Shown here one piece after another: positions 13,735-63,411 of a stretch of 64,000 nucleotides of DNA. The notes below the pieces were generated by a model. It was not told where the DNA came from and ran no database searches. It saw nothing but the letters and a program-made list of their open reading frames with translations. Both the position numbers and the translations under genes were made by a program. Position 1 is the first letter of the stretch; each line of letters starts with the position of its first letter. The stretch is from a bacterium (lineage in GTDB: Bacteria > Myxococcota_A > Bradymonadia > UBA7976 > UBA1532), in the NCBI GenBank assembly GCA_030427205.1, contig JAUHXC010000051.1:1336-65335 (forward strand), given 5' to 3'.

Positions 13735-13948
13735 CTCCTGCGAGCGGTCGCCTGTCGCATGGGAGGCGCTCGCGGGGCGAAGCGTCGCAAGGCGCGCCGA
13801 TCGACGCAAGCCCGTGACGCCCGGCGGTACAGCCCGGCACGGGCCGGCCCGGGTCACCGGCCGGAAACCGTGCGCCTTTGAGCGATGTGAGCTAAGGTCA
13901 CTCCCGGACTCGAACACCCGCGAAACCACGGACCCGACGGCCGCCCCC

Positions 13949-16282
<2,334 letters not shown>

Positions 16283-19335: not shown

Positions 19336-21867
19336 TCAATCCAACGGCAGCCGCGGCGTGGGCGTCTCGGGCAGCGTCACCGCCGGATCGCGCAGGGCCT
19401 TCCAATCGGCGGCGAGCGCGTCGCGCATCGCCGCCCAGCGGGTCTCGAAGATGGCGGCCAGCGCGTCCTGCGTCTCGTCGGGCAGCATCCACGACGTCTC
19501 GATGTTGGCCGCGACGGTCGGCGTCAGGTCGATCTGATGGATGGCCAGCCGCCCCTGATACAGCTCGTTGAGCTCGTCGAACATGCGCCGGTGCATATTG
19601 GCGCCGAGCGGCACCTGATCCTGAATCGTGGCCCACAGCCCGCTGATGTCACGCGGCGGCGCCTTGGTCGGCATGCCGCTGGCGTTGACCACCAGCAGCA
19701 CAACGCCGCGCCGCTTCAAGACATCCAGCCGGTTGCGCAGCAGGTGGTAGAGCGGCCACATGCCCGAGTTGCTCAGCACCCCGCCGTCGGTGAGGAAGAC
19801 CCGCCCCGGCTCCCCTGCCCGGCGGTCGTCGGCGAACGGGCTGAAGAACCGCGGCTGATCGGTCTCGACCTCGACCAGCGGGAAGCCGAACGGGAAGTTG
19901 GCCGACGCCCGCACCGCCGCGACCAGCGCCGGGTCGTAGCGTTCGAGCAGGTCTTCGAGGCCGTAGATCGCGTCGCGATAGAAGACCCAGGTCGGCGCCT
20001 CGGATCCGACGAACTCGACGTAGTCGTTATGGGTCGCGTCGTCGCCGTCGCTGTCATCCTCGTCGCGGGCGTCCGCGCGGATCGACAGGCCGTCGTCGAC
20101 CAGCTCATAGGCCTCGGCGGCCAGCGGGCTGATGACCACCGCGTTGGTATCGAGGGTCACCGTATTGAAGAGCGGCATCGGGCACGGCGGGTGCTTCGCG
20201 CCGGCCTCGGCCGCCGCCGACCACGCGTCGCGCACCGACGAGAGCCGCAGATCGCCGACCCCCGCCGCGTCGGCGAAGGCCGCCTCGATGGACGCGCCGC
20301 GCCCCGAGAACGGCGAGAGGAAACCCAGCACCGTCGGCCGGATGAAGTCCTGCCCGGCGCCGGCCACCATCGCGCCTTCTTCCAGGGCGTCGGGCGCGAG
20401 CCGCCGGCTGATGTAGATCGCGTTGGCCAGGCTGCCGCCCGAGACGCTGCTGATCGCGTGCACGTGCGGGCCCAGCGCCGCGGTGACCGCGTCGAAGTGC
20501 AGCCGCTCGAAGGTATGCGCCGCGTACAGGGCCGCCCGCGAGCCGCCGCCCGACGCGGCGATGACCACCACCGGATCGTCGCCGGCGAACGGCCAAGCGC
20601 TCGGCGGCAGCCGCTCGATGGACTCCGCCTCGTCATCGCTCCACGGCCCGGGGGTGAACGCCATCTTGCTGCCGACGAAGAGCATGCCGATGAGCGACAG
20701 GGCCAGCAGAATCCGGGTCAACGCCGCCCGCCGGTCGCGCAGCACCGTCGCCAGGTTGATCACCGAGCCGACGCCGAGCACCAGCAGGAAGGCGACCTCC
20801 TTGGAGATGCCCAGCACCGGCACCCGCCCCTGGGGCAGGTTGGCCAGCAGCAGCAGCGCGATGAGGCCCACCAGCACCATCAGCCGCACGTTGCGCGGAT
20901 CGAGGTTGTCCCAGTAGTCGATGAGCCGGGCGAAGCCGAGGATCGACGCGAGCACCGTCGCGATGAGCAGCGCGGTCAACGCCAGATCGAAGTCGTCGAA
21001 GACCCAGCCCCCCAGCAGGAACAAGCCCGCGCAGGCGGGCACCAGCATGCCGAAGTAGCGCTTGAGCTTGTGGCCGATGCTGGTCACGAAGATGCCCGGC
21101 CACGGGCTGTCATCGCGATAGGCCGGAAAATGCCGCGGGGCGACCACCAGCGGGTCGAGCTTGCGGAACGCGACCCCGCCGATGTCCCACGGCCGGATCA
21201 AGCCGGTCGTGCCGTCGGCGGTGGCCAGGTCGCGGTCGAAGCGAAGCTGCCGGTGGCCGACGAGCAGCAGCGGCAGAAACAGGTAGGTCAGCATCAGCCC
21301 GTTGAGCCAGGCGGCGGAGAAGAAGGCCGCCACCTGACGCATGTCGAAGACGAGGTAACCGACGCCCACCGTCGAGACGACCGTCGTCGCGTTCTTGTCG
21401 AGCCAGCGCATGCCGATCTCGGCGCGCTCGGTCAGCCGGTCGGTCAACGACGGCTTGCGCGGCGTGTGCTCGAGCAGCTTCAGCCCGAGCGTATAGACCG
21501 TCACGATGCCCGCGAAGAAGGCATCCCGCGCGTCGGCGGCCGGCTTGCGGGAGGGCAGCGCGTGCACCGCCTCGCCCAGCAGGGCCCACGCGCGGGCCAG
21601 CGGCTCGAGATCCGGCGGCGCGTCTTCGGGCTCGACGGCCACCACGCAGTCGACCAGCAGCCGCAGCCGCGCGATGATCTCGGGCGCGGCGTCGGCGATG
21701 CGGGCGTCCATCGAAGCGTCACCCGTGCGCAGCAGCAGCCCGGCGTTGTAGAGCACCGAGCGCCCCTGCTCGATGCTGTCGTGCACGAAGGTCGCCGCGC
21801 GCAGGGGGTGCACCGGCGGTGAGGGCGACGCCCCGTCTGCGTCACTGGCGGATGACTCCCCCGACAT
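19336..21867 (-). CDS. patatin-like phospholipase with a large N-terminal polytopic membrane domain
   Basis: The C-terminal half carries the oxyanion GGGSRA, the GxSxG motif SVSGGSLAN, and the catalytic-Asp motif TDGGVLSNSG. The N-terminal ~430 aa contain at least 8 hydrophobic helices. Confidence 0.75.
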   Translation of the reverse strand: MSGESSASDADGASPSPPVHPLRAATFVHDSIEQGRSVLYNAGLLLRTGDASMDARIADAAPEIIARLRLLVDCVVAVEPEDAPPDLEPLARAWALLGEAVHALPSRKPAADARDAFFAGIVTVYTLGLKLLEHTPRKPSLTDRLTERAEIGMRWLDKNATTVVSTVGVGYLVFDMRQVAAFFSAAWLNGLMLTYLFLPLLLVGHRQLRFDRDLATADGTTGLIRPWDIGGVAFRKLDPLVVAPRHFPAYRDDSPWPGIFVTSIGHKLKRYFGMLVPACAGLFLLGGWVFDDFDLALTALLIATVLASILGFARLIDYWDNLDPRNVRLMVLVGLIALLLLANLPQGRVPVLGISKEVAFLLVLGVGSVINLATVLRDRRAALTRILLALSLIGMLFVGSKMAFTPGPWSDDEAESIERLPPSAWPFAGDDPVVVIAASGGGSRAALYAAHTFERLHFDAVTAALGPHVHAISSVSGGSLANAIYISRRLAPDALEEGAMVAGAGQDFIRPTVLGFLSPFSGRGASIEAAFADAAGVGDLRLSSVRDAWSAAAEAGAKHPPCPMPLFNTVTLDTNAVVISPLAAEAYELVDDGLSIRADARDEDDSDGDDATHNDYVEFVGSEAPTWVFYRDAIYGLEDLLERYDPALVAAVRASANFPFGFPLVEVETDQPRFFSPFADDRRAGEPGRVFLTDGGVLSNSGMWPLYHLLRNRLDVLKRRGVVLLVVNASGMPTKAPPRDISGLWATIQDQVPLGANMHRRMFDELNELYQGRLAIHQIDLTPTVAANIETSWMLPDETQDALAAIFETRWAAMRDALAADWKALRDPAVTLPETPTPRLPLD

Positions 21868-21952
21868 CGCTCCCCTCCCATCGCAGCCTGCGCCGGGACA
21901 TCATCACCGATGACTCGACGCAGATCCACGCCGTGGGCCGAGCGCCCGAGGC

Positions 21953-22537
21953 TCACGCCGGCTCGTCGTCGTCGTCGTCGTAGAGCCGGCGATCGACCGG
22001 CGGCCCGCCGACCCCCAACCACTCGGCCAGCGTCGCGACCCGCTGAGCCACCTCGGCCTCGGTGACGAACGACCGCCCGATGCAGATGCGCGCGCCGCCG
22101 GTCAGCGCGACGACCCGGTACAGGTTGCGCGGGCGGTTGTACTCGACCGCGAAGCCGTCGATGTCGTCGAAGGGCACGACGTGCCGGGTGCGGATCCAGG
22201 CGATGCCCTCTTCGATGCGCAGCTCGCCCGGATCCCGCTCGAAGACGGTGCGCTCCCGCGGGGCCTTGGCGGCGATCCACCAGGCGAACGCGAAGAACAT
22301 CACCCCGGCCACCCCGAAGAGGTTGCGCTCGGCCCAGGCCGATACGCCGACCCAGACCCCGATGCCGATCATCAGCCCGGCGCTGAGCCAGACCGGCCAG
22401 GGCAGCGTCTTGAAGACCAGCCGCTCCGCCGAGCGCTTCGCCCAGCGGGCGCCGGCCAGCTGATCGGCGTTGCCGGTGTGGCGCAGCGGCCCCCGGGGCA
22501 GGTTGCGGTTGCGCCTGCGGCGATCGGCTCGACCCAC
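21953..22537 (-). CDS. membrane protein, possibly of the bacterial PH-domain (YcxB-like) type
   Basis: GTG start with AGGAGG 5 nt upstream. A basic N-terminus is followed by 2 TM helices and a C-terminal DIDGFAVEYNRPRNLYRVVALTGGARICIGR segment. Confidence 0.5.
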   Translation of the reverse strand: MGRADRRRRNRNLPRGPLRHTGNADQLAGARWAKRSAERLVFKTLPWPVWLSAGLMIGIGVWVGVSAWAERNLFGVAGVMFFAFAWWIAAKAPRERTVFERDPGELRIEEGIAWIRTRHVVPFDDIDGFAVEYNRPRNLYRVVALTGGARICIGRSFVTEAEVAQRVATLAEWLGVGGPPVDRRLYDDDDDEPA

Positions 22538-22622
22538 GTCGTCCTCCTGCCCGTGACCCCGAGGCCGGGCGTGTATCTGTATCGGCGCCGGCACACCGCC
22601 GACCCCAACCGAGGAGACCACG

Positions 22623-23459
22623 ATGCACCACGCCCTGAAGACGTTGCTGGCCGCCTTGATTCTGCTGCCCGCCACCGCCGCCGCCGAGCAATCGCCCGAG
22701 CGACCATGGCGCCTCGACCTGCACGCCGAGCTGGGCAGCCTCTGGGTGGCATACCACACCGTCAAGCTCGACCGTGACGGCACCGACATGGACTACATCG
22801 ACGACCTGGGCCAGGAGAACCTGGTGCCCTTCGTGCGCGGCTCGGCCGATCTCTACCTCGGCGACCGTCAGCAGCACGTCGTCACGCTGCTCTACCAGCC
22901 CCTCGAGATCGTCTCGGCGCGCACGCTGGCCCGCGATCTGCTCATCGACGACCAGGTCTTCCCCGAAGGCGCGGCGGTGCGCTCGACCTACAGCTTCCCC
23001 TTCGCTCGCATCAGCTACCTCTACGACTTCGCCGACGGCCCCGACGAGCTGGCCATCGGCGCCTCGCTGCAGCTGCGCAACGCCACCATCGAGTTCGAAC
23101 AGCTCGACGGCCCGGCCTTCCGCAGCCGGCGCGACATCGGGCCGGTGCCCGTGCTCAAGTTCCGCTGGCGCCAGGGCTTCGCCAACGGCGCGTTCGCCGG
23201 CTTCGAGATCGACGGCTTCTACGCGCCGATCAAGTACCTCAACGGCGGCGAGACCGACGTCGAGGGGGCCATCGTCGACGCCAGCCTGCGCGCCGGCCTC
23301 GAGTTGCGGCAGGACGTCGACGCCTTCCTCAACCTGCGCTGGCTCGGCGGCGGGGCGAGCGGCGGCGGCGAAGACGACGACAACCCGGGCGACAACTACA
23401 ACGAGAACTGGCTGACCTTCTTCTCGCTGAGCCTCGGCCTGACCTACGGCGGGCTCTGA
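22623..23459 (+). CDS. secreted hypothetical protein (possibly an OM beta-barrel)
   Basis: Signal peptide (ALILLPATAAAE). Alternating hydrophobic beta-strand-like segments. The C-terminus is ...LGLTYGGL. Confidence 0.5.
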   Translation: MHHALKTLLAALILLPATAAAEQSPERPWRLDLHAELGSLWVAYHTVKLDRDGTDMDYIDDLGQENLVPFVRGSADLYLGDRQQHVVTLLYQPLEIVSARTLARDLLIDDQVFPEGAAVRSTYSFPFARISYLYDFADGPDELAIGASLQLRNATIEFEQLDGPAFRSRRDIGPVPVLKFRWRQGFANGAFAGFEIDGFYAPIKYLNGGETDVEGAIVDASLRAGLELRQDVDAFLNLRWLGGGASGGGEDDDNPGDNYNENWLTFFSLSLGLTYGGL

Positions 23460-23564
23460 CGGCCCGTGCCCGCCGACGGGCCTTGACCGCGCGCCGCGTC
23501 GGGGGCTACTGCTGCCCCGAAGCGGCCCCCCGCCTTGCGGGCCGCGCCCCACGCGGAGGCGGCC

Positions 23565-26500
23565 ATGCCAATGCCAGCCCTGTCCCGAACGCCCGCCCTC
23601 TTCCGAGCCCTCTCGCTGACCCTGCTGACCGCCGGGCTGGCGGCCTGCGTGCCCACCAGCAGCGGCCGCGGCGGCGGATCGTGCGTCGACGGCGAAGCCG
23701 AGGCCTGCGCCTGCCCCGACGGGACCAGCAGCCTGCGCACCTGCGAAGGCGAGCGCTTCGGGCCGTGCCCCTGCGAAGCCACCGGCGACGACGGCGTCGG
23801 CGATACGGGCGCGCCCGACGCAGATCCGGGCGACGACGGCGGCCGGCCCGACGCGTGCCGGCCCCTCTGCGGCGAGCGGGCCTGCGGCGACGACGGCTGC
23901 GGCGGCGCGTGTGGCACATGTGAAGCCGGCGCCTTCTGCACGCCCGAGGGTCAATGCGCCGCCGAGCCCGAGAGCTGCGGCGACGACACCTGCGACGCCG
24001 ACGAGAACTGCCTCTCGTGCGCCGCCGACTGCGGGTGCGGCCCCGACGAGGTCTGTGATCCGGTCGACGCGACCTGCGGCCCGCCGCCGTGTGAACCCGC
24101 CTGCGACGGCCGCGCCTGCGGCGACGACGGCTGCGGCGGCGAGTGCGGCGCGTGCGAGGCCGGCGAGCGCTGCGCCGACGGCCAATGTGTCGAAGACGAC
24201 CCCTGCCCCGACCGCCCGTGCGACATCCTCTGGGCCGCCCGCTGCACCGACGACGCCACCGGCCGGGTGCTGTGCGTGCCCGACGCCGCCGACGGCTGCC
24301 CCGGCGAGAGCCGACGCATCGCCTGTGATTCCGGCCGTGAATGCGCCGAGGGCGCCTGCGCCGGCGCCACCACCGACGTCGAGATCATGTTCCTGCTCGA
24401 TCGGTCGAGCAGCATGGCCGACGGCCGCTGGAATGCCATCGGTGATGCCATCCAAGGCTTCGCCGCCACCTATGGCATATGGCATCGCATGGGCGTGCGC
24501 ACCTTCCCCGGCGAAGGCTGCGCCGCCGGCCCCGTACCGCCGCTGGTCATCAACGCCGCGGTCGGCGTGCGCACCGTGCTCGCCGCGGGCACCGCCCCCG
24601 GCGATCAGACCCCCATCGCCGACGCCTTCACCGACCTCGCGCCGGCCTTCGGCGACTTCGACGAGGCCCAGATCGTCGTGCTGATCACCGACGGCACCGA
24701 GACCTGCGCCGACAATGACGCGGCGCTGCTCGACGCCATCGACGACCTGCGCCGCCGGGGCATCGATCTGCATGTCATCGGCGTCGGCCCACGCGCCGAC
24801 CGGGAGCTCCTCGGCCGCCTCGCCCAGCGCGCCGGCCGCGAGGCCGACCTGCCCGCCATCGACGACGGCGACGACATGGCCCGCTGGCTCGACGGGCTGC
24901 TCGATCGCTACGACGCGACCCGCTGCGATCACGATGGCATCGCCTGCGACGGCGAGGGCCTCGTCGAGTGCCGCGACCGGCGCGTCGTCGAGGCGCGCAC
25001 CTGCCCCGACCTGTGCGTCGACGGCGAGGGCTGCCTCACCTGCTGGCCGCCCGATACGACCCGCTGCGTCGACGCGCAGCGGCGCGAGGTCTGCGGCGAC
25101 GACGGCGACTGGCAGCCGCCCGAGGCCTGCCCCTACTGCCTGGGCGACGACTGCGTCGAGTGCGAGCCGGGCGCCAGCGAGTGCGTCGACGAGACCCGCC
25201 GGCGGGTCTGCGGCGCCGACGGCCGCTGGCAGCCGCCCGTATTCTGCGCCCACTGCCTCGACGGCGACTGCGTCATCTGCCGCCCCGGCGCGACCCGCTG
25301 CGCGACCTTCGAGCGCCAGGAGACCTGCGGCGCGAACGGCGCCTGGGGCGACGCCGCCGCCTGCGTTCATTGCCTGGGCGATGGCGACTGCGTCGACTGC
25401 CGCCCCGGCGCCGTCGAGTGCGCCGACGACGTGCGGCTGCGCACCTGCGACGACGCGGGCCGCTGGCAAGTCGAGCGATGCGACGCGTGCGTCGACGACG
25501 TCTGCCGCGTCTGCCGACCGGGCGAGACCCGCTGCGTCGATGGCACCAGCGACCAGACGTGCACCGCCGACGGCGCCTGGGGCCCGGCCCGGGAATGCGA
25601 CGCCTGCGCCGACGGCCAGTGCCGCTTCATCGTCGAGGCCGACGACGTGCGCCTCGTCGACGGCGCCCGCCCGTCCGAAGGCCGGGTCGAGGTGCGGCAC
25701 AACGGCGAGTGGGGCCACCTCTGCGGCCGCGACTTCGACCGCCGCGAGGCGCAGGTCATCTGCCGCCAGCTCGGCCTGCCCACCGAGACCGCTCAGCACC
25801 GCTTCAGCGAGCCCTTCGGTCGGCCACCGCAAGGGCAGGTGGCGTGGCTCGACAGCGTCGCGTGCACCGGCGACGAGGCGCGCCTGACCGACTGCGACCT
25901 GCAGCCGTGGCTCATCGACGGCAGCTGCACGATCTACGGCCCGGTCTCGATCACCTGCCTCGCCGGCGAGTGCCGGCCCGGGGACGTGCGCTGCGCCGAC
26001 GACACCCACAGCCAGGCCTGCGGCGAAGACGAGCTCTGGCGCGAGCCCGAAGAGTGCGCCGCCTGCATCCGCGGCGACTTTCTCGCGCAGAACCTCTTCG
26101 CGGGCGAGTGCCGCCCCTGCCGCGCCGGCCAGACCCGCTGCCTCGACGCCGATACGGCGCAGACCTGCGGCGAAGACAACGATTGGGACCCGGCCGCGCG
26201 GGTCGACTGCGCGACCGGCTGCGCCGACGGCGCCTGCGTCGGCGACGGCGAGGTGCGCCTCGTCGACGGGCCCGTGCCCTACGCCGGCCGGGTCGAGATC
26301 CGCCACAACGGCGAGTGGGGCCGCGTCTGCGGCCGCAACTTCGACCCCCGCGAGGGCCGGGTCATCTGCCGTCAGCTCGGCCTGCCCACCGAGACCGCCC
26401 AGCCACGGTTCAGCGACCCCTACGGCCGCGCGCCCGCCGACCAGCCCGCGTGGCTCGACAGCGTGGCCTGCACCGGCGACGAAGAGGCCTACACCGACTG

Positions 26501-27461
26501 CGATGCGCCGCCCTGGCTCGTCGACGGCACCTGCGCGATCTACGGTCAGGTCTCGCTCGCCTGCCTCGAGGGCGAGTGCTTCCCCGGCGATACCCGCTGC
26601 GCCGACGACACCCACGTCGAGGTCTGCGGCGACGACCAGCTGTGGCAAGAGCCTGAAGAGTGCGCCGCCTGCGTCAGCGGCGACTATCTGGCGCAGAACG
26701 TCTTCCGCGGCGAGTGCCGCCCCTGCCGCGCCGGCCAGACCCGCTGCCTCGACGCCGAGCGGGCCCAGACCTGCGGCGAAGAGGACGACTGGAATCCGGA
26801 CGCCATCGTCGACTGCCCCGACGGCTGCGCCGAGGGCGCCTGCGTCGGCGACGGCGAGGTGCGCCTCGTCGACGGCCCCGAGCCCTGGGCCGGGCGGGTC
26901 GAGATCCGCCACAACGGCGAGTGGGGCCGCGTCTGCGGCCGCAACTTCGACCCCCGCGAAGGCCGCGTCATCTGCCGCCAGCTCGGCCTGCCCACCGAGA
27001 CTGCTCAGCAACGCTTCAGCGAGCCCTACGGCCGCGCGCCCGCCGACCAGCCGGCGTGGATCGACAGCGTGGCGTGCCGCGGCGATGAAGAAGCCTATAC
27101 CGACTGCGATACGCCGCCGTGGCTCGTGGACGGCAACTGCGCGATCTACGGCCAGGTCTCGCTCGCCTGCCTCGAAGGCGAGTGCGTGCCGGGCGACGTG
27201 CGCTGCAGCGACGACACCCACATCCAGGCCTGCGGCGACGACCAGCTGTGGCAGGCACCCGAAGAGTGCCCCGCCTGCGTCAGCGGCGACTATCTGGCGC
27301 GCAACGTCTTCGCGGGCGAGTGCCGCCCCTGCCGCGGCGGCCAGACGCGCTGTATCGACGCCGACCGGGTGCAGATCTGCGGCGAAGACAATGACTGGGA
27401 TGCAGATGCCATCATCGACTGCCCCGATGGCTGCGTCGGCGACGCCTGCGTCGGCGGCTGA
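23565..27461 (+). CDS. giant Cys-rich lipoprotein with vWA + EGF-like modules + 3x SRCR domains
   Basis: Lipobox LTAGLAAC. vWA MIDAS DRSSSMADGRW...VVLITDGTE. Repeated C-x-x-C-x-DG-x-C-x-x-C-RPG modules. Three ~105-aa units (VRLVDG..EGRVE(V/I)RHNGEWG.(V/L)CGR.FD.RE..VICRQLGLPTE....W(L/I)DSVAC.GDE...TDCD) fit the SRCR consensus. Confidence 0.8.
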   Translation: MPMPALSRTPALFRALSLTLLTAGLAACVPTSSGRGGGSCVDGEAEACACPDGTSSLRTCEGERFGPCPCEATGDDGVGDTGAPDADPGDDGGRPDACRPLCGERACGDDGCGGACGTCEAGAFCTPEGQCAAEPESCGDDTCDADENCLSCAADCGCGPDEVCDPVDATCGPPPCEPACDGRACGDDGCGGECGACEAGERCADGQCVEDDPCPDRPCDILWAARCTDDATGRVLCVPDAADGCPGESRRIACDSGRECAEGACAGATTDVEIMFLLDRSSSMADGRWNAIGDAIQGFAATYGIWHRMGVRTFPGEGCAAGPVPPLVINAAVGVRTVLAAGTAPGDQTPIADAFTDLAPAFGDFDEAQIVVLITDGTETCADNDAALLDAIDDLRRRGIDLHVIGVGPRADRELLGRLAQRAGREADLPAIDDGDDMARWLDGLLDRYDATRCDHDGIACDGEGLVECRDRRVVEARTCPDLCVDGEGCLTCWPPDTTRCVDAQRREVCGDDGDWQPPEACPYCLGDDCVECEPGASECVDETRRRVCGADGRWQPPVFCAHCLDGDCVICRPGATRCATFERQETCGANGAWGDAAACVHCLGDGDCVDCRPGAVECADDVRLRTCDDAGRWQVERCDACVDDVCRVCRPGETRCVDGTSDQTCTADGAWGPARECDACADGQCRFIVEADDVRLVDGARPSEGRVEVRHNGEWGHLCGRDFDRREAQVICRQLGLPTETAQHRFSEPFGRPPQGQVAWLDSVACTGDEARLTDCDLQPWLIDGSCTIYGPVSITCLAGECRPGDVRCADDTHSQACGEDELWREPEECAACIRGDFLAQNLFAGECRPCRAGQTRCLDADTAQTCGEDNDWDPAARVDCATGCADGACVGDGEVRLVDGPVPYAGRVEIRHNGEWGRVCGRNFDPREGRVICRQLGLPTETAQPRFSDPYGRAPADQPAWLDSVACTGDEEAYTDCDAPPWLVDGTCAIYGQVSLACLEGECFPGDTRCADDTHVEVCGDDQLWQEPEECAACVSGDYLAQNVFRGECRPCRAGQTRCLDAERAQTCGEEDDWNPDAIVDCPDGCAEGACVGDGEVRLVDGPEPWAGRVEIRHNGEWGRVCGRNFDPREGRVICRQLGLPTETAQQRFSEPYGRAPADQPAWIDSVACRGDEEAYTDCDTPPWLVDGNCAIYGQVSLACLEGECVPGDVRCSDDTHIQACGDDQLWQAPEECPACVSGDYLARNVFAGECRPCRGGQTRCIDADRVQICGEDNDWDADAIIDCPDGCVGDACVGG

Positions 27462-27466
27462 CCGGT

Positions 27467-28168
27467 CTACTCGCCCGGCTTGCCCTCGCCCGGCTTCACC
27501 TCGCTCGCCTTCGCCTCGACCTCACGCACCGCCTCGACCGCCGCCGCCGCCCGCGCGACCCGCGGCGGCGCGTTGGGGTGGGACCGCACCCGCTCGCCGG
27601 TATCGGTCACCGCGAACGGGACGAGGTCGCTGGGCTTGCCCGGCGTCGGCAGCAGCGGCTTCGCCCGCCACTCGCCCATGATCCAGATCGCGCAGGGCTT
27701 CTCGGTCTGCGCGCCGCACGCCGCGCGGATGCGATCGGCCAGGGAGATGCCCAGCCGGCTGTCATCCAGCGCCAGCGCCAAGGCATCGGGGCGTTTGCCG
27801 CGCGCGCCGGCCGCCAGCGGACCGCCCAGCACGGTGGCGTGCTCGACCCCGCCCAGCGGCGAGCGGGTGATGCCCACCGGCAGCCGCACCCGCGTACCCG
27901 GATCGAGGCCGTCGAGCCACTTGAGCACCAGCGTCCGGTTGGAGACGTCGGGGCCGTCGATCCAGATCGTCGGCGGCTGCGGGCGCTTGTTGCGCGGCCG
28001 GACCGCGGTGGAGACCCGGTGCTCGGCGCCGGGGCCGATGGCGTCTTTCGGCATCTCGAAGCTCCCGGGCTTGGCCATGGCCGGCGTGGATGCCATGGCA
28101 GTCATACCAGCGATAGCACCGATGGCATACAACCACCGATGACCCTTGCGATAGCTCCGATGGCTCAT
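27467..28168 (-). CDS. secreted hypothetical protein
   Basis: Signal peptide (WLYAIGAIAGMTAMASTPAMA). The ATG overlaps the upstream stop (ATGA). Confidence 0.5.
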   Translation of the reverse strand: MSHRSYRKGHRWLYAIGAIAGMTAMASTPAMAKPGSFEMPKDAIGPGAEHRVSTAVRPRNKRPQPPTIWIDGPDVSNRTLVLKWLDGLDPGTRVRLPVGITRSPLGGVEHATVLGGPLAAGARGKRPDALALALDDSRLGISLADRIRAACGAQTEKPCAIWIMGEWRAKPLLPTPGKPSDLVPFAVTDTGERVRSHPNAPPRVARAAAAVEAVREVEAKASEVKPGEGKPGE

Positions 28169-28983
28169 GGCACCTCCTTGCGGGCGATCACGAAGACATA
28201 GCCATAATACTGGCCGTAGCGATCGTAGATGTCCGCCTCGGCGATGCTCTCATCCAACGCCGCCGTCAGCGCGGGGCTGCACGGCTGGGCGCGCAGCGTG
28301 GCGACGCGGGCGCGGATCGGGTCGTAGTAGTTCGACCAGTCGCTCGCGGGCAGGATGAAGTCATGAATGACATACCATCCGGCCGCCGCCGTACGCTTGC
28401 GGGTCGTCTCGACGTCGCCGAGGGCCGGATACTCCGCTTCGAGCATCGCGCGCAGGTCCGTAGGCACGTCGGCGGTGAGCCAGACCAACTCGGAGAAGGC
28501 CAGCCGCGCGTCGGGTGAAGCGATGGCATGCCAGCGGCGCAACGCCTTCTCGACGCCGACGCTGTAGGCCGCGCCCTCGCTCCAGATGAGATCCGCCGGG
28601 CCCGGGTGGTCGAGCATCGAGCCATGCCACGCGGTCACGCGGTCGCTGACGTTCGCGGCGGCGGCGCGCTTCTCCAGCTGGTCGAGGAAGGGCCGATGCA
28701 GATCGACGCCGACGACCGCCGCGCCGGGCAGCGCATTGGCCAGCGTGACCGTCGGCTGGCCCGGGCCGCAGCCGAAGTCGATGACGCGGGGCTTGTCGGG
28801 CAGCGGGCCGCACGCGGCGAGGGCCCGCCGGGTCGTGGCCGCGCTGCCGGGCCCCTCGCGGTCGAGGTCGCGGTGCACCTGGAAGAACTCGGGGCTCACG
28901 GGCGGCTCCGGGGGTGGTTCTAGGGTCACGGTAGGATGAGCAGGGGCGCGGTTCAAGGTGAGTTCGGCCTGTCGAGGAACCAT
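28165..28983 (-). CDS. class I SAM-dependent methyltransferase
   Basis: Motif I VIDFGCGPGQPT. Motif II/post-I (AVVGVDL) is spaced as expected. Confidence 0.65.
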   Translation of the reverse strand: MVPRQAELTLNRAPAHPTVTLEPPPEPPVSPEFFQVHRDLDREGPGSAATTRRALAACGPLPDKPRVIDFGCGPGQPTVTLANALPGAAVVGVDLHRPFLDQLEKRAAAANVSDRVTAWHGSMLDHPGPADLIWSEGAAYSVGVEKALRRWHAIASPDARLAFSELVWLTADVPTDLRAMLEAEYPALGDVETTRKRTAAAGWYVIHDFILPASDWSNYYDPIRARVATLRAQPCSPALTAALDESIAEADIYDRYGQYYGYVFVIARKEVP

Positions 28984-30209: not shown

Positions 30210-33200
30210 TCAGGGGACAAGAGGCCAGGTTCTCGCCGGGCGCAGCCCGAGGGAGCGGTTGCGGTAGGCCGGGCGGACGGCGTAGCGATTCGCTGCGCGG
30301 CAGAACCCCGCCGTCGAGTTCCACCCGCAGCCGCGGGAGACACGGTCGCGCGGGAGGGGGGCTTCGACGGGGGTTGCTTCAGAGCGGTCGGTGATATCGT
30401 TCTCGTAAGCATCCTGAACCCATTCGTAGACGTTGCCGATGATGTCGTACAGGCCCCAGTCGTTGGGCTGGCGTTCGCCCTTCACCGGCGCCTGCGCGCC
30501 CCCCGAGCCGTCGTATACCGCGATGTCTGCCAGCGCGCCATATCGCGCCCCGGTCGTGCCGGCGCGGGCCGCGTACTCCCACTCGGCCTCGGTCGGCAGG
30601 CGGTAACCCGCGCAGTCGAGGCCGGCGAACGTCACCGCCCCGCAGCGGAAGTTATCCGCGTTGGTGCAGGTGAACCACCCGTCCTGCCGGCCAATGTCGC
30701 AGTTCCCGGAGCCGAGCTCGCCAACACAGTTCAGAACCCGATAGCAAGGCTCCAGCCCCTCAGCCTTAGACAGCGCGTTCACGTAGGCCACCGCCTCGAA
30801 CCAGTTGACGCTGTCCACCGGGTAGTCGGCGCCGTCACGGCTCGGGCGGCTCTTCATCAACGCCGTCCACTGCGCCTCGGTCACCTCCGTCTCGGCCAGC
30901 CAGAACCCGCGGGTGAGCGTGACCGCGTGCTGGCCTTCGTTGTCGAAGCGCCCCTCTTCGTCCAGGGGGCTGCCCATCATGAAACGCCCCGGCCGAACCG
31001 GCAGCATCGCCGGCCGGTTGTCGGTGGCTGCCAGGACCCGCGCGGCTTCGGCCCCGGCGTCCAGGGCAGCGTCGACCGCAGGCTCAGCGTCGACCAGCGG
31101 CGCGGGCGCGCCACCGTCCACCGGGCCGCCATCCGGCGGCCCGGCGTCGGGCAGCCGCAGGATGCTCGTCGGCGCCGCCACCGCCGCCGCCTCGGCCGTC
31201 AGCGGTCGCGCCTGCCCGACCTCCAGCGTCCAGAGGTCATCGCCGGCCGCCTGCGGGACCTGCGCCCCGCCCCATACGCCATCGAGCAACCACAAGCCCA
31301 GCCACAGCACAGCCGCGGCCACCACAGCCCAGGCCAGCGGCGCGCGCACGCTGCCCCGATCGAAGCCGCCCGCCGAGACCACCTCGCCCGGCGCGCCCCG
31401 CCCCAGCGCGTGGTCCAGGTGCAGCGCGGTCGCGCCGTCGATCGTGGCGCGGCGCACCCGGTCGAAGCCCTCCAGCATCTGCCGGGCGTCGGCCGCGAGC
31501 GCGGTCCCCAGGAACGCGTCCACCCGCGCGACCGCGCCCGCGCTCGGCGCCCGCCGCAGGTCGTACATCGCCTGCCGCAGCCGATCGGCCTCGGCTTCGC
31601 CCGGCGCGCGCGGCCCGCCTTGTCGTGCGGCGAGGGAGGCCGCCTGAGCCTTGGCGATCCGCGCGTCGATCGCAGCCAGGTCACCGATGCCATCCAGCGC
31701 GGCCCACGACGCGAGCAAGTCTTCCTCCGCCGGCACCAGCCGCGACCGCTCGGCCAGCCCCGGCCCGCGCTCGCCGCGGGCGGCGCGCATGCCTTCGAAG
31801 GCATCGATGACTGCCTGCACATGCCATCGCTCGGTGAACACGGCCTTCACCGCGGGCAGCGCCTCGCGCAGAGACTCCGCCCCGTCCCACTCGGCCTCGG
31901 GCACCAGCGCGCAGGCCGCGGCCCACTCGGCCAGCGCGGCGCGATACCCAGGCGTGTCCTCATCGGGCAGCCCCGGCCAGCGCGGCGCGCGCCCCGGCGG
32001 ATCGCCGCCCAGACGCCGGGCGGCGGCGACCAGCCCCTCCGGCGTCATCGGGCAGCGCGCCAGCCCGTCGCTCTCGATCAGGTGGGCATAGCGCGCCTCA
32101 GTCGCCCCACGCCGCGCGGGCGGCCGCGGATCGGGATCGACCCAGACCCGGTCGGGCCACGCCCGCAGCAGCTCGGTCCAGCGCGCCTCGCCCTCGCGGG
32201 CGTCGGTCAGCAGCCGATGGGACAGGATCAGCAGCGGCCCGTCACCGAACCGCCGCGCCACTTGAGCCAAGGTATGCCGCCGCCCGTCTTCGTCGGTGAG
32301 CCAGTCGGGCCGCCGCGAGAACTCGAACGCGCGCAGCGGCACGTGCCGCTCACGCCAGAAGCGCACCAGCCGGTTGAACCCGCCCAGCCAGACGTGCTCG
32401 CCGCTGCCCTGGTCGACGAAGATCGTCAGCGGCTGGTCGATCCGCCGCACCTGCGGCACTACCCGCAGCTGGCCCGCGGCCCGCGCCGTGGCTTCGGCGG
32501 TGGCCTCGGCGTCGATCCGCTGGCCCGGCCGCGCCTGGAAGATCTGCCCCAAGACATAAGCCGACGCGTCGGCCCCGGCCGGCGGCGCGCGCCACTCGGT
32601 CGGCGCGCGGCGGGTCGTATGGGCCCGCTTCTCCGCGGCCAGCCGCCGCCGATCGGCCTCGGCAGCACGCGCCACGGCCTCGCGCTGCTCGATCTCGAGC
32701 GCGCGGCGGTTGCGATAGCGATCGAGCAGCACGGCGCCCATCGCGATGAGCGCCGCGCCGAAGAGCCACGCCAGCCAGTCGCCCAGATCGAAGACCGCCG
32801 GCGCCTGCGCGACGGGCACATGCTGCGCGCGCGGGTTGGGCACCGGCTCCAGCGTCGCGGCGCGCGATGTGGCCGCGTCTGGCATACCGGCGTCGGTCGA
32901 TGCCATCACCGAGGCATCCGCCGATGACTCATCGGATGGCATCTGCGATGGTTCAGAGATGACAAAACCGATGACGACCCCCACCGCGAGCAGCGCGGCG
33001 AAGACCCATCCGAGTGATGACTTCGATGACTCCGATGACTTCGCCAGAGGTCCTTCGATGCCATCCGCCGCGGCGCGCTGCGTGGGCTCATACCGCGCGA
33101 TCGCCGCCCGGATCCGCTCGACCTCGTCCCGATCGCGCCCGAGCGCCGCCGCGAGGCCGTCGGCCCGCGCCTCCAGATCCTCTGCGGTCTGCGCCGGCCA

Positions 33201-33302
33201 GCCCTGCCACAAACGGTGGGCCTTCAAGCGGGCGGCGACCCCCAGCGGGGCCACCTCGCGGTGGATCCGGTCGAGCAGCGGGTCGAGATCGGTCGCGGCC
33301 AT
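30210..33302 (-). CDS. large 3-TM protein: cytoplasmic degenerate vWA-like region + extracytoplasmic FGE-sulfatase domain
   Basis: TM helices lie near aa 98, 185 and 680. The region between TM2 and TM3 contains LTIFVDQGSGEHVW (MIDAS-like DxSxS). The C-terminal 330 aa carry YRLPTEAEWEYAARAG, YDIIGNVYEWVQD and RGCGW. The start lies 2 nt after the MoxR stop. Confidence 0.7.
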   Translation of the reverse strand: MAATDLDPLLDRIHREVAPLGVAARLKAHRLWQGWPAQTAEDLEARADGLAAALGRDRDEVERIRAAIARYEPTQRAAADGIEGPLAKSSESSKSSLGWVFAALLAVGVVIGFVISEPSQMPSDESSADASVMASTDAGMPDAATSRAATLEPVPNPRAQHVPVAQAPAVFDLGDWLAWLFGAALIAMGAVLLDRYRNRRALEIEQREAVARAAEADRRRLAAEKRAHTTRRAPTEWRAPPAGADASAYVLGQIFQARPGQRIDAEATAEATARAAGQLRVVPQVRRIDQPLTIFVDQGSGEHVWLGGFNRLVRFWRERHVPLRAFEFSRRPDWLTDEDGRRHTLAQVARRFGDGPLLILSHRLLTDAREGEARWTELLRAWPDRVWVDPDPRPPARRGATEARYAHLIESDGLARCPMTPEGLVAAARRLGGDPPGRAPRWPGLPDEDTPGYRAALAEWAAACALVPEAEWDGAESLREALPAVKAVFTERWHVQAVIDAFEGMRAARGERGPGLAERSRLVPAEEDLLASWAALDGIGDLAAIDARIAKAQAASLAARQGGPRAPGEAEADRLRQAMYDLRRAPSAGAVARVDAFLGTALAADARQMLEGFDRVRRATIDGATALHLDHALGRGAPGEVVSAGGFDRGSVRAPLAWAVVAAAVLWLGLWLLDGVWGGAQVPQAAGDDLWTLEVGQARPLTAEAAAVAAPTSILRLPDAGPPDGGPVDGGAPAPLVDAEPAVDAALDAGAEAARVLAATDNRPAMLPVRPGRFMMGSPLDEEGRFDNEGQHAVTLTRGFWLAETEVTEAQWTALMKSRPSRDGADYPVDSVNWFEAVAYVNALSKAEGLEPCYRVLNCVGELGSGNCDIGRQDGWFTCTNADNFRCGAVTFAGLDCAGYRLPTEAEWEYAARAGTTGARYGALADIAVYDGSGGAQAPVKGERQPNDWGLYDIIGNVYEWVQDAYENDITDRSEATPVEAPLPRDRVSRGCGWNSTAGFCRAANRYAVRPAYRNRSLGLRPARTWPLVP

Positions 33303-33304
33303 CG

Positions 33305-34363
33305 TCAGGTGCGCGCCGTGACCCGGTCCCAGTCGGCCTTCAGCTTGAGCAGGCAGCCCAGCCCCGGCAGCTCATCCCAGCCGAGGCTGGCCGACAGCTC
33401 GAAGCCGCCGTCCTTGGGCCGCACCGCCTTGTCGAACGCGGCCAAGCGCGCCTCGGCCTTGGGGTAGACGCCCGGCGTGATCAGCGTCTCGAACCAGCCG
33501 ATCAGCTCCGAGGTCGACGGCGCCTTGAGCAAGACCGCGGCGTAGCGCTGGCGCAGCGCCAGGAAAGCCTTCACCGCCGATGGGATGTGCCTGTGATGGG
33601 TCTTCGCGAAGCGCGCCTTCAGGATGCGATCGAGCCGCTCGCGATCGGGGAAGCCGACGTGATGGAAGACGCAGCGGCGCAAGAAGGCGTCGGGCAGCTG
33701 CCGCTCTTCGTTGCTGGTGATGATGATCACCGGCTTCTCGTGCGACGCCGGGTCGGGGTGACCCAGCTGCCGCCGCAATGGGATGCCATGGCTGATGACA
33801 TCGCCCCGCGCGGGGCCGATCGCGCCCCGCGCCTCGCCGTCGAGCTCCTTGATCTCGAAGCGCCCCTGATCCAGCTCACGCAGCAGGTCGTTGGGCAGGT
33901 CCCGCGGCGCCTTGTCGATCTCGTCGATGAGCACCACCCGCCGCGACCGCTCGGGCAGCCCCATCTGGGCCAGCGCCACGCCGAGCGGCATCAGCTCGAT
34001 GTACAGCCGGGCGTCCGCCGCCCGCGCGGCCCCCGCCTCGCCGCGGTTGTGCGCGTCGCCGAAGCGGCGCAGGGCGTCGTAGTGATAGAGCAGGTCGCGG
34101 GCCTGGGTATCGCTGCGCACGTAGCACTCGAGCAGCCCGTCGGCGTCCCGCGGCCGCCAGTCGGCGCGGTTGCCGGCCAGCTTGCGGGCGATGGCGAACG
34201 CAAAGTCGGTCTTGCCGCAGCCCGGCTCGCCGGTGAGCAGCAGCGGCATGCCCAGGGTGATGGCCGCCTTCAGCGCCGAGACCAGCCGCCGGTCGGCTAC
34301 GTACTCCGCGGCGGGGTCGCGCCCGTAGAAGGGCGCGGCGAAGGTGGCGATGTCGATGCTCAA
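33305..34363 (-). CDS. MoxR-family AAA+ ATPase
   Basis: Walker A LLTGEPGCGKT. Walker B VVLIDEIDKA. Sensor-1 IIITSNE. The likely start is a TTG preceded by GGAGG, 13 nt after the upstream stop. The listed ATG at 34459 overlaps the upstream gene. Confidence 0.8.
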   Translation of the reverse strand: MSIDIATFAAPFYGRDPAAEYVADRRLVSALKAAITLGMPLLLTGEPGCGKTDFAFAIARKLAGNRADWRPRDADGLLECYVRSDTQARDLLYHYDALRRFGDAHNRGEAGAARAADARLYIELMPLGVALAQMGLPERSRRVVLIDEIDKAPRDLPNDLLRELDQGRFEIKELDGEARGAIGPARGDVISHGIPLRRQLGHPDPASHEKPVIIITSNEERQLPDAFLRRCVFHHVGFPDRERLDRILKARFAKTHHRHIPSAVKAFLALRQRYAAVLLKAPSTSELIGWFETLITPGVYPKAEARLAAFDKAVRPKDGGFELSASLGWDELPGLGCLLKLKADWDRVTART

Positions 34364-34376
34364 TGGGCCTCCTGCG

Positions 34377-57022: not shown

Positions 57023-57142
57023 CGCGGCCTCCCCGGGTCGATACGCGGACGAGGCTACAAGGTCCGACGACGCGGGGCGAGGGGCGGTCACTCAGAGCGT
57101 CGAGTAGGACCCGTCGACGCGCCCCCGTCGTCTCCGCGGGCC

Positions 57143-60547: not shown

Positions 60548-60558
60548 GGGTGCTCCGT

Positions 60559-63275: not shown

Positions 63276-63411
63276 GCGCGCTCCCGGTTCGCCGGCCGGC
63301 CGGCGGTCTGGTGTGAAGCGGCCGGCGTCGTCCCCGCGCCCCGGCTCGCGCAGGCAGCCTATGCGCTGCCGGCGCCCGCGGCAAGCGGGTGATGATCCGG
63401 CGCGCGGCGTA

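What the first reader, a model, noticed from the sequence alone, without database searches (positions are those of the whole stretch)
23565..27461. Giant lipoprotein with a vWA domain, EGF-like Cys modules and three SRCR domains
SRCR domains are a hallmark of metazoan innate-immunity and scavenger receptors and are rare in bacteria. Three ~105-aa repeats here match the SRCR consensus closely (VRLV.G...EGRVE..HNG.WG..C...FD...A.V.CRQLG ... W.D.V.C.G.E..L.DC), each followed by a conserved Cys-rich linker. N-terminal to them are a canonical vWA MIDAS and at least 8 C-x-x-C-x-DG-x-C-x-x-C-RPG modules. Such an adhesin-like, eukaryote-like architecture suggests a role in cell-cell or prey recognition, or ancient horizontal acquisition.
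Basis: partly seen in the sequence, partly recalled or inferred. Interest (0 to 1): 0.65.

Follow-up and report, generated by a model that had tools for sequence, protein, structure and literature searches.

The report
Bacterial lipoprotein with three SRCR domains
A high-GC, Myxococcota-type bacterium encodes a 1,298-residue, cysteine-packed lipoprotein that joins a metal-dependent adhesion (vWA) domain to three real copies of the SRCR domain best known from animal scavenger receptors; it is most likely a cell-surface binding protein, and SRCR domains recur across this bacterial group without being described in the literature I could search.

Summary
Window 23565-27461 (+) is one coding ORF of 1,298 aa. 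It has a GGAGG ribosome-binding site, a lipobox (LAAC, Cys28), a vWA domain with a complete MIDAS motif, eleven 39-aa six-Cys modules, and three SRCR domains (Pfam E=2.5e-67). The modelled SRCR unit superposes on solved SRCR structures at TM 0.85-0.90.

- The Cys modules are not EGF-like. They have no Pfam hit even at E<=10 and no PDB fold match. They are predicted with high confidence (pLDDT 93) as stacked beta-hairpins.
- The SRCRs have the 6-Cys group-A pattern and lack the acidic cation/ligand site of DMBT1-type SRCRs.
- SRCR is not a one-off here. I found it in at least five other Myxococcota-type architectures, including a Kelch-repeat family whose C-terminal SRCR is missed by whole-protein annotation.

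Among 1.84 billion representatives, only one other protein (P0002) shares the module-plus-SRCR architecture.

The best reading is an outer-membrane-anchored, disulfide-stabilised, multivalent adhesin or binding protein. The function, the ligand and the evolutionary origin of the SRCRs are inferred, not shown. I rate it a new variant of a known kind, of moderate interest.

The parts
23555..23559 (+). Shine-Dalgarno-like GGAGG, 5 nt upstream of the ATG
   Evidence: Read directly from the sequence.
23565..23648 (+). Signal peptide with lipobox L-A-A-C; Cys28 is the predicted lipidated residue
   Evidence: MPMPALSRTPALFRALSLTLLTAGLAAC|VPTSSGRGGG. Family members keep the Cys followed by a Gly-rich tether.
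23649..24359 (+). N-terminal Cys-rich region (38 Cys). It holds two CxPxCxxRACGDDGCGGxCGxC cassettes (DNA repeat 23823-23931 and 24057-24165) and a CGDDTCDxxExCxxCxxDCGC unit.
   Evidence: repeat D9. 93 of 119 homologues share only this cassette. No Pfam hit at E<=10.
24384..24836 (+). vWA domain (res 274-424) with MIDAS D279/S281/S283, T349, D376
   Evidence: PF00092 E=1.2e-8, 35.9 bits against cutoff 23.8. Alignment to the CLCA1 VWA domain 6pyo. Motif positions.
24924..25634 (+). Tract of Cys modules (36 Cys): a lead-in plus five 39-aa (117-nt) six-Cys modules, consensus C-[RE]-P-G-x3-C-x-D-x6-C-G-x-D-G-x-W-x5-C-x2-C-x4-C
   Evidence: DNA repeats D3-D7; regex and HMM. AF2 model pLDDT 93.2, all beta-hairpins. 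No Pfam or PDB match.
25641..25964 (+). SRCR domain 1 (res 693-800), 6-Cys group-A pattern
   Evidence: AF2 plus Foldseek TM 0.85-0.90 to SCARA5, SCARA1, M2BP and DMBT1.
25965..26246 (+). Linker 1: two Cys modules (12 Cys), the second with a ~10-aa insertion (GDFLAQNLFAGE)
26247..26570 (+). SRCR domain 2 (res 895-1002)
   Evidence: Against SRCR3, dN/dS = 0.16.
26571..26852 (+). Linker 2: two Cys modules
26853..27176 (+). SRCR domain 3 (res 1097-1204)
   Evidence: Its 3' part is independently assembled in Logan contig L006.
27177..27461 (+). Linker 3 / C-terminus: two Cys modules, then the stop codon; no C-terminal sorting signal

Best explanation
The gene encodes a lipid-anchored, exported, disulfide-stabilised multidomain binding protein of a Myxococcota-type bacterium. 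It is most likely an outer-membrane or surface adhesin.

Shown:
- A signal peptide with a lipobox.
- 130 further cysteines, an even number in every region, so up to 65 disulfides are possible.
- A vWA domain with all MIDAS residues.
- A rod-like series of eleven 39-aa beta-hairpin modules.
- Three SRCR domains of the 6-Cys (group A) type, arranged as three 202-aa tandem units under purifying selection.

Inferred mechanism: the N-terminal lipid and Gly-rich tether fix the protein to the outer membrane. The Cys-rich cassette and the hairpin modules act as a rigid, protease-resistant stalk. The vWA MIDAS binds an acidic side chain of a protein ligand through a divalent cation, as in integrin I-domains and M. 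xanthus CglB. The three distal SRCR domains provide multivalent, probably cation-independent, binding to a repetitive surface target on prey, kin or substratum. They lack the acidic dual-cation site that DMBT1-type SRCRs use.

The ligand, the surface exposure and the biological role are not shown.
For: - Coding reality and start site.
- Lipobox, and its conservation in relatives.
- SRCR: Pfam E=2.5e-67 with 3 domains; per-domain E of about 3e-14 to CD163 domain 1; AF2 pLDDT 83 and Foldseek TM 0.85-0.90, rmsd 1.7-2.1 A, to SCARA5 7c00, SCARA1 7dpx, M2BP 1by2 and DMBT1 6sa5.
- Group-A Cys pattern, and substitutions at DMBT1 D1019/D1020/E1086 (to G/R/G) and D1059 (to S). Site definitions come from PMC7043408. 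The recalled DMBT1 sequence was validated against PDB chains.
- vWA with MIDAS.
- Modules as stacked beta-hairpins at pLDDT 93.
- Purifying selection between units, dN/dS 0.16-0.67.
- Precedent: CglB is a Cys-rich vWA outer-membrane lipoprotein adhesin of M. xanthus whose MIDAS residue D56 is needed for function (PMC9946355).
- A VKOR-family protein is encoded in the window. Such proteins replace DsbB in some bacteria (my own knowledge), which would fit a capacity for oxidative folding.
- The family is paralogous within one genome (P0004, P0006 and P0008, all in GCA_030426085.1), as is usual for surface-protein families.
Against: - There is no experimental or contextual evidence for function. 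Gene neighbourhoods of six family members share nothing, and the upstream genes are unrelated.
- Surface exposure, as opposed to a periplasmic orientation, cannot be predicted from sequence.
- The SRCRs lack the cation site that mediates most known SRCR-ligand binding, so the analogy to scavenger-receptor binding is weakened.
- The organism is an uncultured MAG that the tools did not name.
Confidence: 0.55

Rival explanations
1. The SRCR domains are retention or self-association modules rather than target-recognition modules. They would bind a component of the producer's own surface (LPS, exopolysaccharide or another envelope protein), or oligomerise, holding large exoproteins at the cell surface.
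For: SRCR sits at the extreme C-terminus of an unrelated Myxococcota Kelch/CHB_HEX_C family. Those proteins end exactly at the last SRCR Cys. SRCR also occurs in several other architectures. That pattern fits a generic anchoring or accessory module. In animals SRCR is often an accessory domain of enzymes such as LOXL2, hepsin and neurotrypsin (PDB hits; PMC4448552).
Against: The window protein already has an N-terminal lipid anchor, so a second anchor is not obviously needed. Its SRCRs differ from the Kelch-family SRCRs at the canonical binding site (GR..G against DD..E), so one common ligand is unlikely.
Confidence: 0.2
2. It is a periplasm-facing lipoprotein, on the inner leaflet of the outer membrane or on the inner membrane, with a structural or envelope-spanning role rather than an external adhesin role.
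For: Most Gram-negative lipoproteins face the periplasm, as the CglB paper notes. Nothing in the sequence specifies surface export. No C-terminal sorting signal is present.
Against: The elongated ~1,270-residue, 65-disulfide architecture with a vWA and three SRCR binding domains resembles extracellular proteins. The strict absence of Lys (0 of 1,298, against about 1.4% in neighbouring proteins) suggests exposure to a protease-rich exterior. That reading of the Lys depletion is an inference.
Confidence: 0.15
3. It is the vWA partner of a MoxR-type AAA+ ATPase, that is, a chaperone or maturation system.
For: An AAA_5 ATPase gene lies at 33305-34459 (-) in the same window. MoxR ATPases are classically paired with vWA proteins (established knowledge).
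Against: The ATPase gene is about 6 kb away on the opposite strand, beyond at least three other predicted genes. It is adjacent instead to an FGE-sulfatase-domain protein and an iSTAND protein. Other family members have no AAA_5 neighbour next to the gene. The protein is exported and lipidated, unlike typical MoxR partners.
Confidence: 0.03
4. It is an artefact: a chimeric assembly or eukaryotic contamination that introduced animal SRCR exons into a bacterial contig.
For: SRCR is overwhelmingly a eukaryotic domain. Nearly all of the 150 best hits listed out of 14,964 are multi-SRCR proteins; the four whose source I looked up were a sea urchin protein, two green-alga proteins and one unnamed, probably bacterial protein.
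Against: It is one uninterrupted ORF with uniform GC3 of 0.92. The SRCR units are interleaved in frame with modules found only in this bacterial family. An independent ENA assembly carries the same architecture (P0002). A Logan assembly reproduces the 3' end at 100%. The three units differ by 12-20% at the DNA level, with dN/dS below 1.
Confidence: 0.01

Closest known systems
Group-A SRCR domains of animal scavenger receptors (SCARA1/SR-AI, SCARA5, MARCO, Mac-2 binding protein)
   Same: The Pfam family is the same (PF00530). The six-Cys pattern is the same: the C1 and C4 positions of group B are occupied by S/Y/W and L. The predicted fold is the same: TM 0.85-0.89, rmsd 1.7-2.5 A, 30-35% identity.
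   Different: The host is a bacterium and the protein is lipid-anchored rather than a type II membrane collagenous trimer. [quoted passage not shown] There is a longer loop after the helix (RFSxPxGRxPxxQ).
Tandem-SRCR proteins CD163 and DMBT1/SALSA (group B)
   Same: Several SRCR domains are strung along one chain. The best PDB sequence match is CD163 domain 1 (per-domain E of about 3e-14). Some CD163 domains (d1, d5, d6) also lack the cation site.
   Different: Group B domains have 8 Cys. The interdomain linkers in the animal proteins are short peptides or SIDs, not 92-aa double Cys modules. Neither has a vWA domain or a lipid anchor.
CglB of Myxococcus xanthus (vWA outer-membrane lipoprotein adhesin of the gliding machinery; PMC9946355)
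   Same: It comes from the Myxococcota. It has a lipobox Cys, a vWA domain with a functional MIDAS, and many further cysteines thought to form disulfides. It is surface-exposed and acts as an adhesin.
   Different: In the CglB paper's description it has a VWA domain plus a small beta-jellyroll domain and 17 Cys, with no SRCR domains or hairpin modules mentioned. It co-occurs with the Agl-Glt genes. Sequence homology to the window protein was not tested, and no glt genes were noted among the window genes I scanned.
P0002 (ENA metagenome contig ERZ24794647 NODE_127736), the only protein with the same architecture
   Same: It is 40% identical over 93% of the length. It has a lipobox, the N-terminal cassette, a vWA domain, 13 modules, and three SRCR-plus-two-module units. 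It also lacks the cation site.
   Different: It has seven modules before the first SRCR instead of five, and a Tyr/Ser-rich insertion in the linker. The repeats cluster by protein in the tree (WIN clade 100%, WIN+P0002 87% bootstrap).
Other Myxococcota-type SRCR proteins found here: P0004/P0006 (vWA + 1 SRCR); P0007/P0013 (2 SRCR); the Kelch/CHB_HEX_C family (for example MCK6569631.1) with a C-terminal SRCR; L001-L003; P0205 (10 SRCR + TSP3 repeats)
   Same: All have the 6-Cys SRCR type where examined. All are exported, Cys-rich, Lys-poor proteins, and many share the N-terminal CGDDGCGG cassette.
   Different: Most keep the canonical DD...DD...N...E cation site and are up to 58.6% identical to human DMBT1. 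The window SRCRs are 33% identical to DMBT1 and 40-42% identical to these bacterial domains.

Membership tests
SRCR domain (Pfam PF00530) | Profile HMM score above the curated gathering threshold | tested here: met
   223.9 bits against cutoff 26.1, E=2.5e-67, three stretches. phmmer per-domain E of about 3e-14 to CD163.
SRCR domain (Pfam PF00530) | Compact alpha/beta SRCR fold | tested here: met
   AF2 model pLDDT 83. Foldseek TM(target) 0.85-0.90, rmsd 1.7-2.1 A, to 7c00, 7dpx, 1by2 and 6sa5.
SRCR group A | Six conserved Cys (C2, C3, C5-C8), with C1 and C4 absent | tested here: met
   Alignment with DMBT1 and CD163: all six Cys columns are conserved, and C1/C4 are replaced by S/Y/W and L. 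Disulfide connectivity itself is not testable here.
SRCR group B | Eight Cys including the C1-C4 pair | tested here: not met
   There is no Cys at the C1 or C4 columns in any of the three domains.
Cation-dependent SRCR ligand site (DMBT1/SALSA type; PMC7043408) | Acidic residues equivalent to D1019, D1020 and E1086 (site 2) and D1020, D1058, D1059 and N1081 (site 3) | tested here: not met
   The window SRCRs have G, R, G at site 2 and R, D, S, S/T/N at site 3.
vWA domain (PF00092) | Profile score above the gathering threshold | tested here: met
   35.9 bits against cutoff 23.8, E=1.2e-8, res 274-424.
vWA domain (PF00092) | Complete MIDAS motif DxSxS ... T ... D | tested here: met
   D279-R-S281-S-S283, T349, D376. 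DxSxS and TDG align with CLCA1 VWA 6pyo. Metal binding itself is not testable here.
EGF-like domain | Match to an EGF profile, or the six-Cys EGF signature with a C-x-C motif, or an EGF fold | tested here: not met
   No Pfam family hits the module tract or the linker at E<=10. The spacing is C-x2-C-x4-C-x2-C-x6-C-x8-C, with no C-x-C. The module model at pLDDT 93 has no PDB match with E<=0.001 (best TM 0.15).
Bacterial lipoprotein | Signal peptide ending in a lipobox [LVI][ASTVI][GAS]C | tested here: met
   L25-A26-A27-C28 follows a basic n-region and a hydrophobic core. Lipidation and sorting are not testable with these tools.
CglB-type gliding adhesin | Sequence homology to CglB and co-occurrence with agl/glt genes | not tested
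Among the window genes scanned against Pfam, none was recognised as a glt or agl gene. The resemblance is one of design only.
MoxR AAA+ / vWA pair | Adjacent, co-oriented AAA+ (AAA_5/AAA_3) gene | tested here: not met
   The AAA_5 gene is about 6 kb away on the opposite strand. No AAA_5 gene lies next to the homologues; in L010 one sits two genes upstream as a weak hit inside a sigma-54 activator.

The most novel reading that the evidence does not exclude
Myxococcota carry a previously undescribed, diversified repertoire of SRCR-domain surface proteins, with at least six architectures found here and some invisible to routine annotation. Under this reading they act as bacterial 'scavenger receptors' for recognising prey, kin or matrix. 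Their presence would reflect either an old inter-domain transfer that then radiated within the phylum, or a bacterial origin of the SRCR fold. The window protein would be a specialised, cation-independent, trivalent member of that repertoire.
Probability: 0.15. Interest if true: 0.8.

Novelty: new variant of a known kind. Interest (0 to 1): 0.5.

Why it matters
In the animal-centred SRCR papers I read, SRCR is treated as an animal domain of innate immunity and matrix biology, and none mentions bacterial SRCRs. Here it sits in a clearly bacterial lipoprotein, fused to a vWA/MIDAS adhesion domain and to a Cys module that matches no family or solved fold. The same domain recurs in several other Myxococcota protein families.

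If these proteins do bind cell surfaces, they would offer a tractable bacterial model for SRCR ligand recognition. They could also be a molecular handle on how predatory or social Myxococcota recognise prey or kin. The finding also raises a testable question about the direction and age of SRCR transfer between bacteria and eukaryotes. One Myxococcales SRCR (L002) is 58.6% identical to a human DMBT1 SRCR.

On the practical side, whole-protein HMM scans miss bona fide SRCR domains in Cys-rich and Kelch-rich bacterial proteins, so current counts of bacterial SRCRs are underestimates.

Tried and rejected
- **NCBIfam scan of the protein:** no family.
- **Pfam at E<=10 on the module tract, N-terminal Cys region and linker:** nothing, so EGF, furin-like, TIL, Myxococcus Cys-repeat and similar labels are rejected.
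- **SRCR-only word-indexed search:** returned only short SRCR fragments. One is named (Trichoplax); the rest are unnamed ENA/JGI/Logan entries that I assumed to be eukaryotic. It was of no use for a bacterial census.
- **Module-tract search:** returned nothing, not even the protein itself. This is probably a filter or word-index limitation.
- **The look-up of encoding contigs on P0001:** failed. The organism could not be named, and the window genome is not among the GTDB representatives that match the two SRCR patterns. The first, broader SRCR alignment was too divergent for pattern design.
- **Exhaustive search:** swamped by multi-SRCR proteins (the named ones I checked were eukaryotic). It was useful only to show that a single other protein shares the architecture.
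- **Conserved gene neighbourhood or partner gene:** none found.
- **MoxR pairing:** rejected.
- **Neighbour-joining tree of 59 SRCR domains:** the deep branching is unresolved, with 0% bootstrap for bacterial monophyly, so I draw no conclusion on the direction of transfer.
- **Literature:** no paper in the held library mentions SRCR together with Myxococc* or Myxococcota. The SRCR evolution papers I read do not mention prokaryotes.
- **Antisense ORF 21501-27221 (-), 1,906 aa:** it failed the GC3/GC2 coding filter that the + strand ORF passes, so it is treated as a high-GC artefact.

Full report
**What is at the coordinates**

Window 23565-27461 (+) is a single ORF of 1,298 codons. The longest reading starts at TTG 23535, but ATG 23565 is preceded by GGAGG at 23555-23559 with a 5-nt spacer. 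Its third-position GC is 0.92, the same as the surrounding genes in this 72% GC window. The 1,906-codon ORF on the opposite strand fails the same coding filter and is a high-GC artefact.

The identical protein exists in NCBI (P0001, on a contig of 65,674 bp). An independent Logan assembly of run ERR3428543 reproduces window 26972-28578 at 100% identity, which includes the second half of the last SRCR unit. The neighbouring genes are ordinary bacterial genes: beta-lactamase-fold, patatin, methyltransferase, histidine kinases, OmpA, a TRAP transporter DctP, and a type I restriction-modification system. Contamination or chimerism is therefore not a serious option.

**Anatomy (residue numbers from ATG 23565)**

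- **Residues 1-28** are a signal peptide, MPMPALSRTPALFRALSLTLLTAGLAAC. It has a basic n-region, a hydrophobic core and the lipobox L-A-A-C. A Gly-rich tether (VPTSSGRGGG) follows. Relatives keep the same Cys-plus-Gly-rich arrangement.
- **Residues 29-265** are a Cys-rich region with two CxPxCxxRACGDDGCGGxCGxC cassettes. This cassette is promiscuous: 93 of 119 homologues share only this part. They carry Kelch propellers, agmatine-deiminase, FGE-sulfatase and other domains, and those that carry a name are labelled Myxococcota, Myxococcales or Bradymonadia (one is labelled Pseudomonadota).
- **Residues 274-424** are a vWA domain (PF00092, 35.9 bits against a cutoff of 23.8). All MIDAS residues are present: D279-x-S281-x-S283, T349 and D376.
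- **Residues 454-690** are a lead-in plus five 39-aa modules.
- **Three 202-aa tandem units** follow (606 nt each, starting at 25631, 26237 and 26843). Each is one SRCR domain plus two further modules.

In total there are 11 modules and 131 cysteines: Cys28 plus 38 + 2 + 36 + 3x18. The number is even in every region, which fits full disulfide pairing. The mature protein contains no lysine at all, against a median of about 1.4% in neighbouring proteins. Its relatives have 0-4 lysines.

**The SRCR call is solid**

- Pfam PF00530 gives E=2.5e-67 with three stretches.
- A single unit matches CD163 domain 1 with a per-domain E of about 3e-14.
- An AlphaFold model of residues 440-900 has a mean pLDDT of 83. 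Its SRCR part superposes on solved SRCR domains of SCARA5, SCARA1, M2BP and DMBT1 at TM 0.85-0.90 and rmsd 1.7-2.1 A.
- The domains have six Cys in the group-A pattern. The C1 and C4 positions of group B are S/Y/W and L.

The three SRCRs lack the acidic cluster that Reichhardt et al. (PMC7043408) showed to bind Ca2+ and ligands in DMBT1. D1019, D1020 and E1086 are G, R and G, and D1059 is S. I recalled the DMBT1 repeat sequence from memory, then checked it against PDB DMBT1 chains (228-235 bits over all 101 residues). Loss of this site is not unique. Some CD163 domains and many invertebrate SRCRs also lack it. It does mean that the usual cation-dependent binding to polyanions cannot be assumed here.

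The three units are 80-88% identical in DNA. Their dS is 0.25-0.38 and dN/dS is 0.16-0.67, so they are old, maintained copies rather than an assembly stutter.

**The modules are not EGF-like**

No Pfam family matches the module tract, the linker or the N-terminal region, even at E<=10. NCBIfam also gives nothing. The spacing C-x2-C-x4-C-x2-C-x6-C-x8-C has no C-x-C element. A model of residues 454-692 is very confident (pLDDT 93.2) and consists only of short beta-hairpins, two per module. Foldseek finds no solved structure with E<=0.001, and the best TM is 0.15. I therefore describe it as an unclassified six-Cys beta-hairpin module that probably builds a rigid stalk. The stalk role is an inference.

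**How rare is this?**

An exhaustive HMMER search of residues 266-1298 against 1.84 billion cluster representatives gave 14,964 hits. Only P0002 aligns across the modules plus the SRCR units (residues 255-1033 of the query). P0002 is a 1,393-aa protein on a 4.6-kb ENA metagenome contig, 40% identical over 93% of the length. Almost all of the other listed hits match through SRCR alone. Of the four I looked up, one is from a sea urchin and two are from volvocine green algae; the fourth is P0205, discussed below.

SRCR as such is not unique to this protein among Myxococcota-type bacteria:
- P0004 and P0006 have vWA plus one SRCR, and P0007 and P0013 have two SRCRs.
- Three GTDB genomes labelled Myxococcales or Deltaproteobacteria carry SRCR in quite different proteins (L001-L003).
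- P0205 looks like a lipoprotein with 10 SRCRs alternating with thrombospondin type-3 repeats.
- A family of ~1,500-aa Kelch/CHB_HEX_C proteins (for example MCK6569631.1, Myxococcota) ends in an SRCR domain. That domain scores 76-92 bits when scanned alone. Whole-protein hmmscan and the precomputed annotations both miss it.

All bacterial SRCRs placed in my alignment are of the 6-Cys type, and most keep the DD...DD...N...E site. The SRCR of L002 is 58.6% identical to human DMBT1. The window SRCRs are only 33% identical to DMBT1 and 40-42% identical to the other bacterial domains.

In a neighbour-joining tree of 59 domains, the window repeats form a clade (100% bootstrap) that is sister to the P0002 repeats (87%). 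Bacterial monophyly gets 0% support and the backbone is unresolved. The repeats therefore cluster by protein, through concerted evolution or independent triplication. The origin of bacterial SRCRs stays open.

**Function**

Nothing in the genomic context helps. Six family loci share no neighbours, three paralogues sit at unrelated places in one genome, and the genes just upstream are unrelated to one another. The AAA_5 ATPase in the window is 6 kb away on the other strand, next to FGE-sulfatase-domain and iSTAND genes, so a MoxR-vWA pairing is rejected.

The best-supported reading rests on anatomy and on one precedent, M. xanthus CglB. CglB is a Cys-rich vWA outer-membrane lipoprotein that is surface-exposed and acts as an adhesin through its MIDAS (PMC9946355). 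By analogy I propose that this protein is lipid-anchored in the outer membrane. It would then project a disulfide-locked stalk, bind a protein ligand through the vWA MIDAS, and use three distal SRCR domains for multivalent, probably cation-independent binding.

Of this proposal, only the domain content, motif integrity, fold predictions and purifying selection are shown. Localisation, ligand and role are inferred (confidence about 0.55).

The main rivals are:
- The SRCRs are self-surface retention or accessory modules. Their position at the C-terminus of the Kelch family suggests this (0.2).
- The protein faces the periplasm (0.15).

**Novelty and verdict**

The domains are known families, and the protein is already deposited, though no source in the collection gives it a name. 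What is new is the combination:
- a lipobox, a vWA/MIDAS domain, an unclassified hairpin module and three group-A SRCRs in a single bacterial protein;
- the divergent binding site;
- the wider observation that Myxococcota hold a partly hidden SRCR repertoire.

I found no paper linking SRCR with Myxococc* (0 hits), and the SRCR evolution papers I read do not mention prokaryotes. I rate it a new variant of a known kind, with interest 0.5.

Noticed in passing
P0016, P0017, P0022, P0023, P0025, P0028, P0034, P0073, P0076 (homologues; C-terminal ~95 aa): Large Myxococcota Kelch/CHB_HEX_C proteins, annotated as 'N-acetylneuraminic acid mutarotase' or 'chitobiase C-terminal domain protein' (for example MCK6569631.1), end in a bona fide SRCR domain. 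Four of the C-termini were scanned alone and score 76-92 bits on PF00530. Whole-protein hmmscan and the precomputed Pfam lists both miss the domain. Bacterial SRCR counts are therefore underestimates.
   Followed up: partly
window 23565-27461 and relatives P0002-P0013: The 1,298-aa protein has no lysine (R = 8.3%). Neighbouring proteins have a median of about 1.4% Lys. Family members have 0-4 Lys in about 1,000 residues. This may be an adaptation to Lys-specific proteases or to an exposed location.
   Followed up: partly
window 22623-23459 (+): The gene directly upstream on the same strand (105 bp gap) encodes a 278-aa protein. It has a signal peptide and an alternating-pattern C-terminus (...LSLGLTYGGL), which looks like a small outer-membrane beta-barrel. 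It has no Pfam or NCBIfam hit and is unrelated to the upstream genes of two homologues.
   Followed up: partly
window 12400-14205 (-): A 601-aa protein with a VKOR (vitamin K epoxide reductase) domain. From my own knowledge, bacterial VKOR homologues replace DsbB in disulfide formation, which would be relevant to a genome encoding proteins with more than 100 cysteines.
   Followed up: no
window 30210-35993 (-): A run of three genes: a 1,030-aa protein with predicted membrane segments and a C-terminal FGE-sulfatase domain, an AAA_5 ATPase, and a protein with a weak iSTAND match. This may be a separate signalling or conflict module. An FGE-sulfatase gene also lies two genes from P0006 in L004.
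   Followed up: no
window 51402-52832 (+) and 53001-53876 (-): Two more Cys-rich (6.3% and 4.5% Cys), nearly Lys-free ORFs with no Pfam or NCBIfam match.
   Followed up: no
window 55811-63863 (-): A type I restriction-modification system: HsdR (57143-60547), HsdM (61809-63863) and an unassigned 426-aa ORF (55811-57091) that may be HsdS. GC drops to 0.66-0.69 here.
   Followed up: no
P0205 (one search hit; 1,621 aa, NCBI contigs of 20.7 and 5.5 kb): It has a lipobox-like N-terminus (LLIWGC), 10 SRCR domains alternating with thrombospondin type-3 repeats, and almost no Lys. It is probably another bacterial SRCR architecture, but its source organism could not be looked up.
   Followed up: partly
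L001 5341-6417 (JACQEN010000163.1, groundwater Deltaproteobacteria MAG): A small protein with one canonical SRCR, followed by a hydrophobic segment and an RRRRSA tail. The tail resembles a C-terminal membrane or sorting anchor.
   Followed up: no
L004, L008, L011 (assembly GCA_030426085.1): Three paralogues of the family (P0006, P0004, P0008) sit on three different contigs of one genome, in unrelated contexts. This is a dispersed multigene family.
   Followed up: partly
L002 6001-6255 (Myxococcales MAG HK-STAS-MYXO-10): Its single SRCR domain is 58.6% identical to a human DMBT1 SRCR repeat. That is higher than DMBT1 against CD163 domain 1 (51.5%) or domain 5 (43%). It hints at inter-domain transfer or extreme constraint.
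   Followed up: partly
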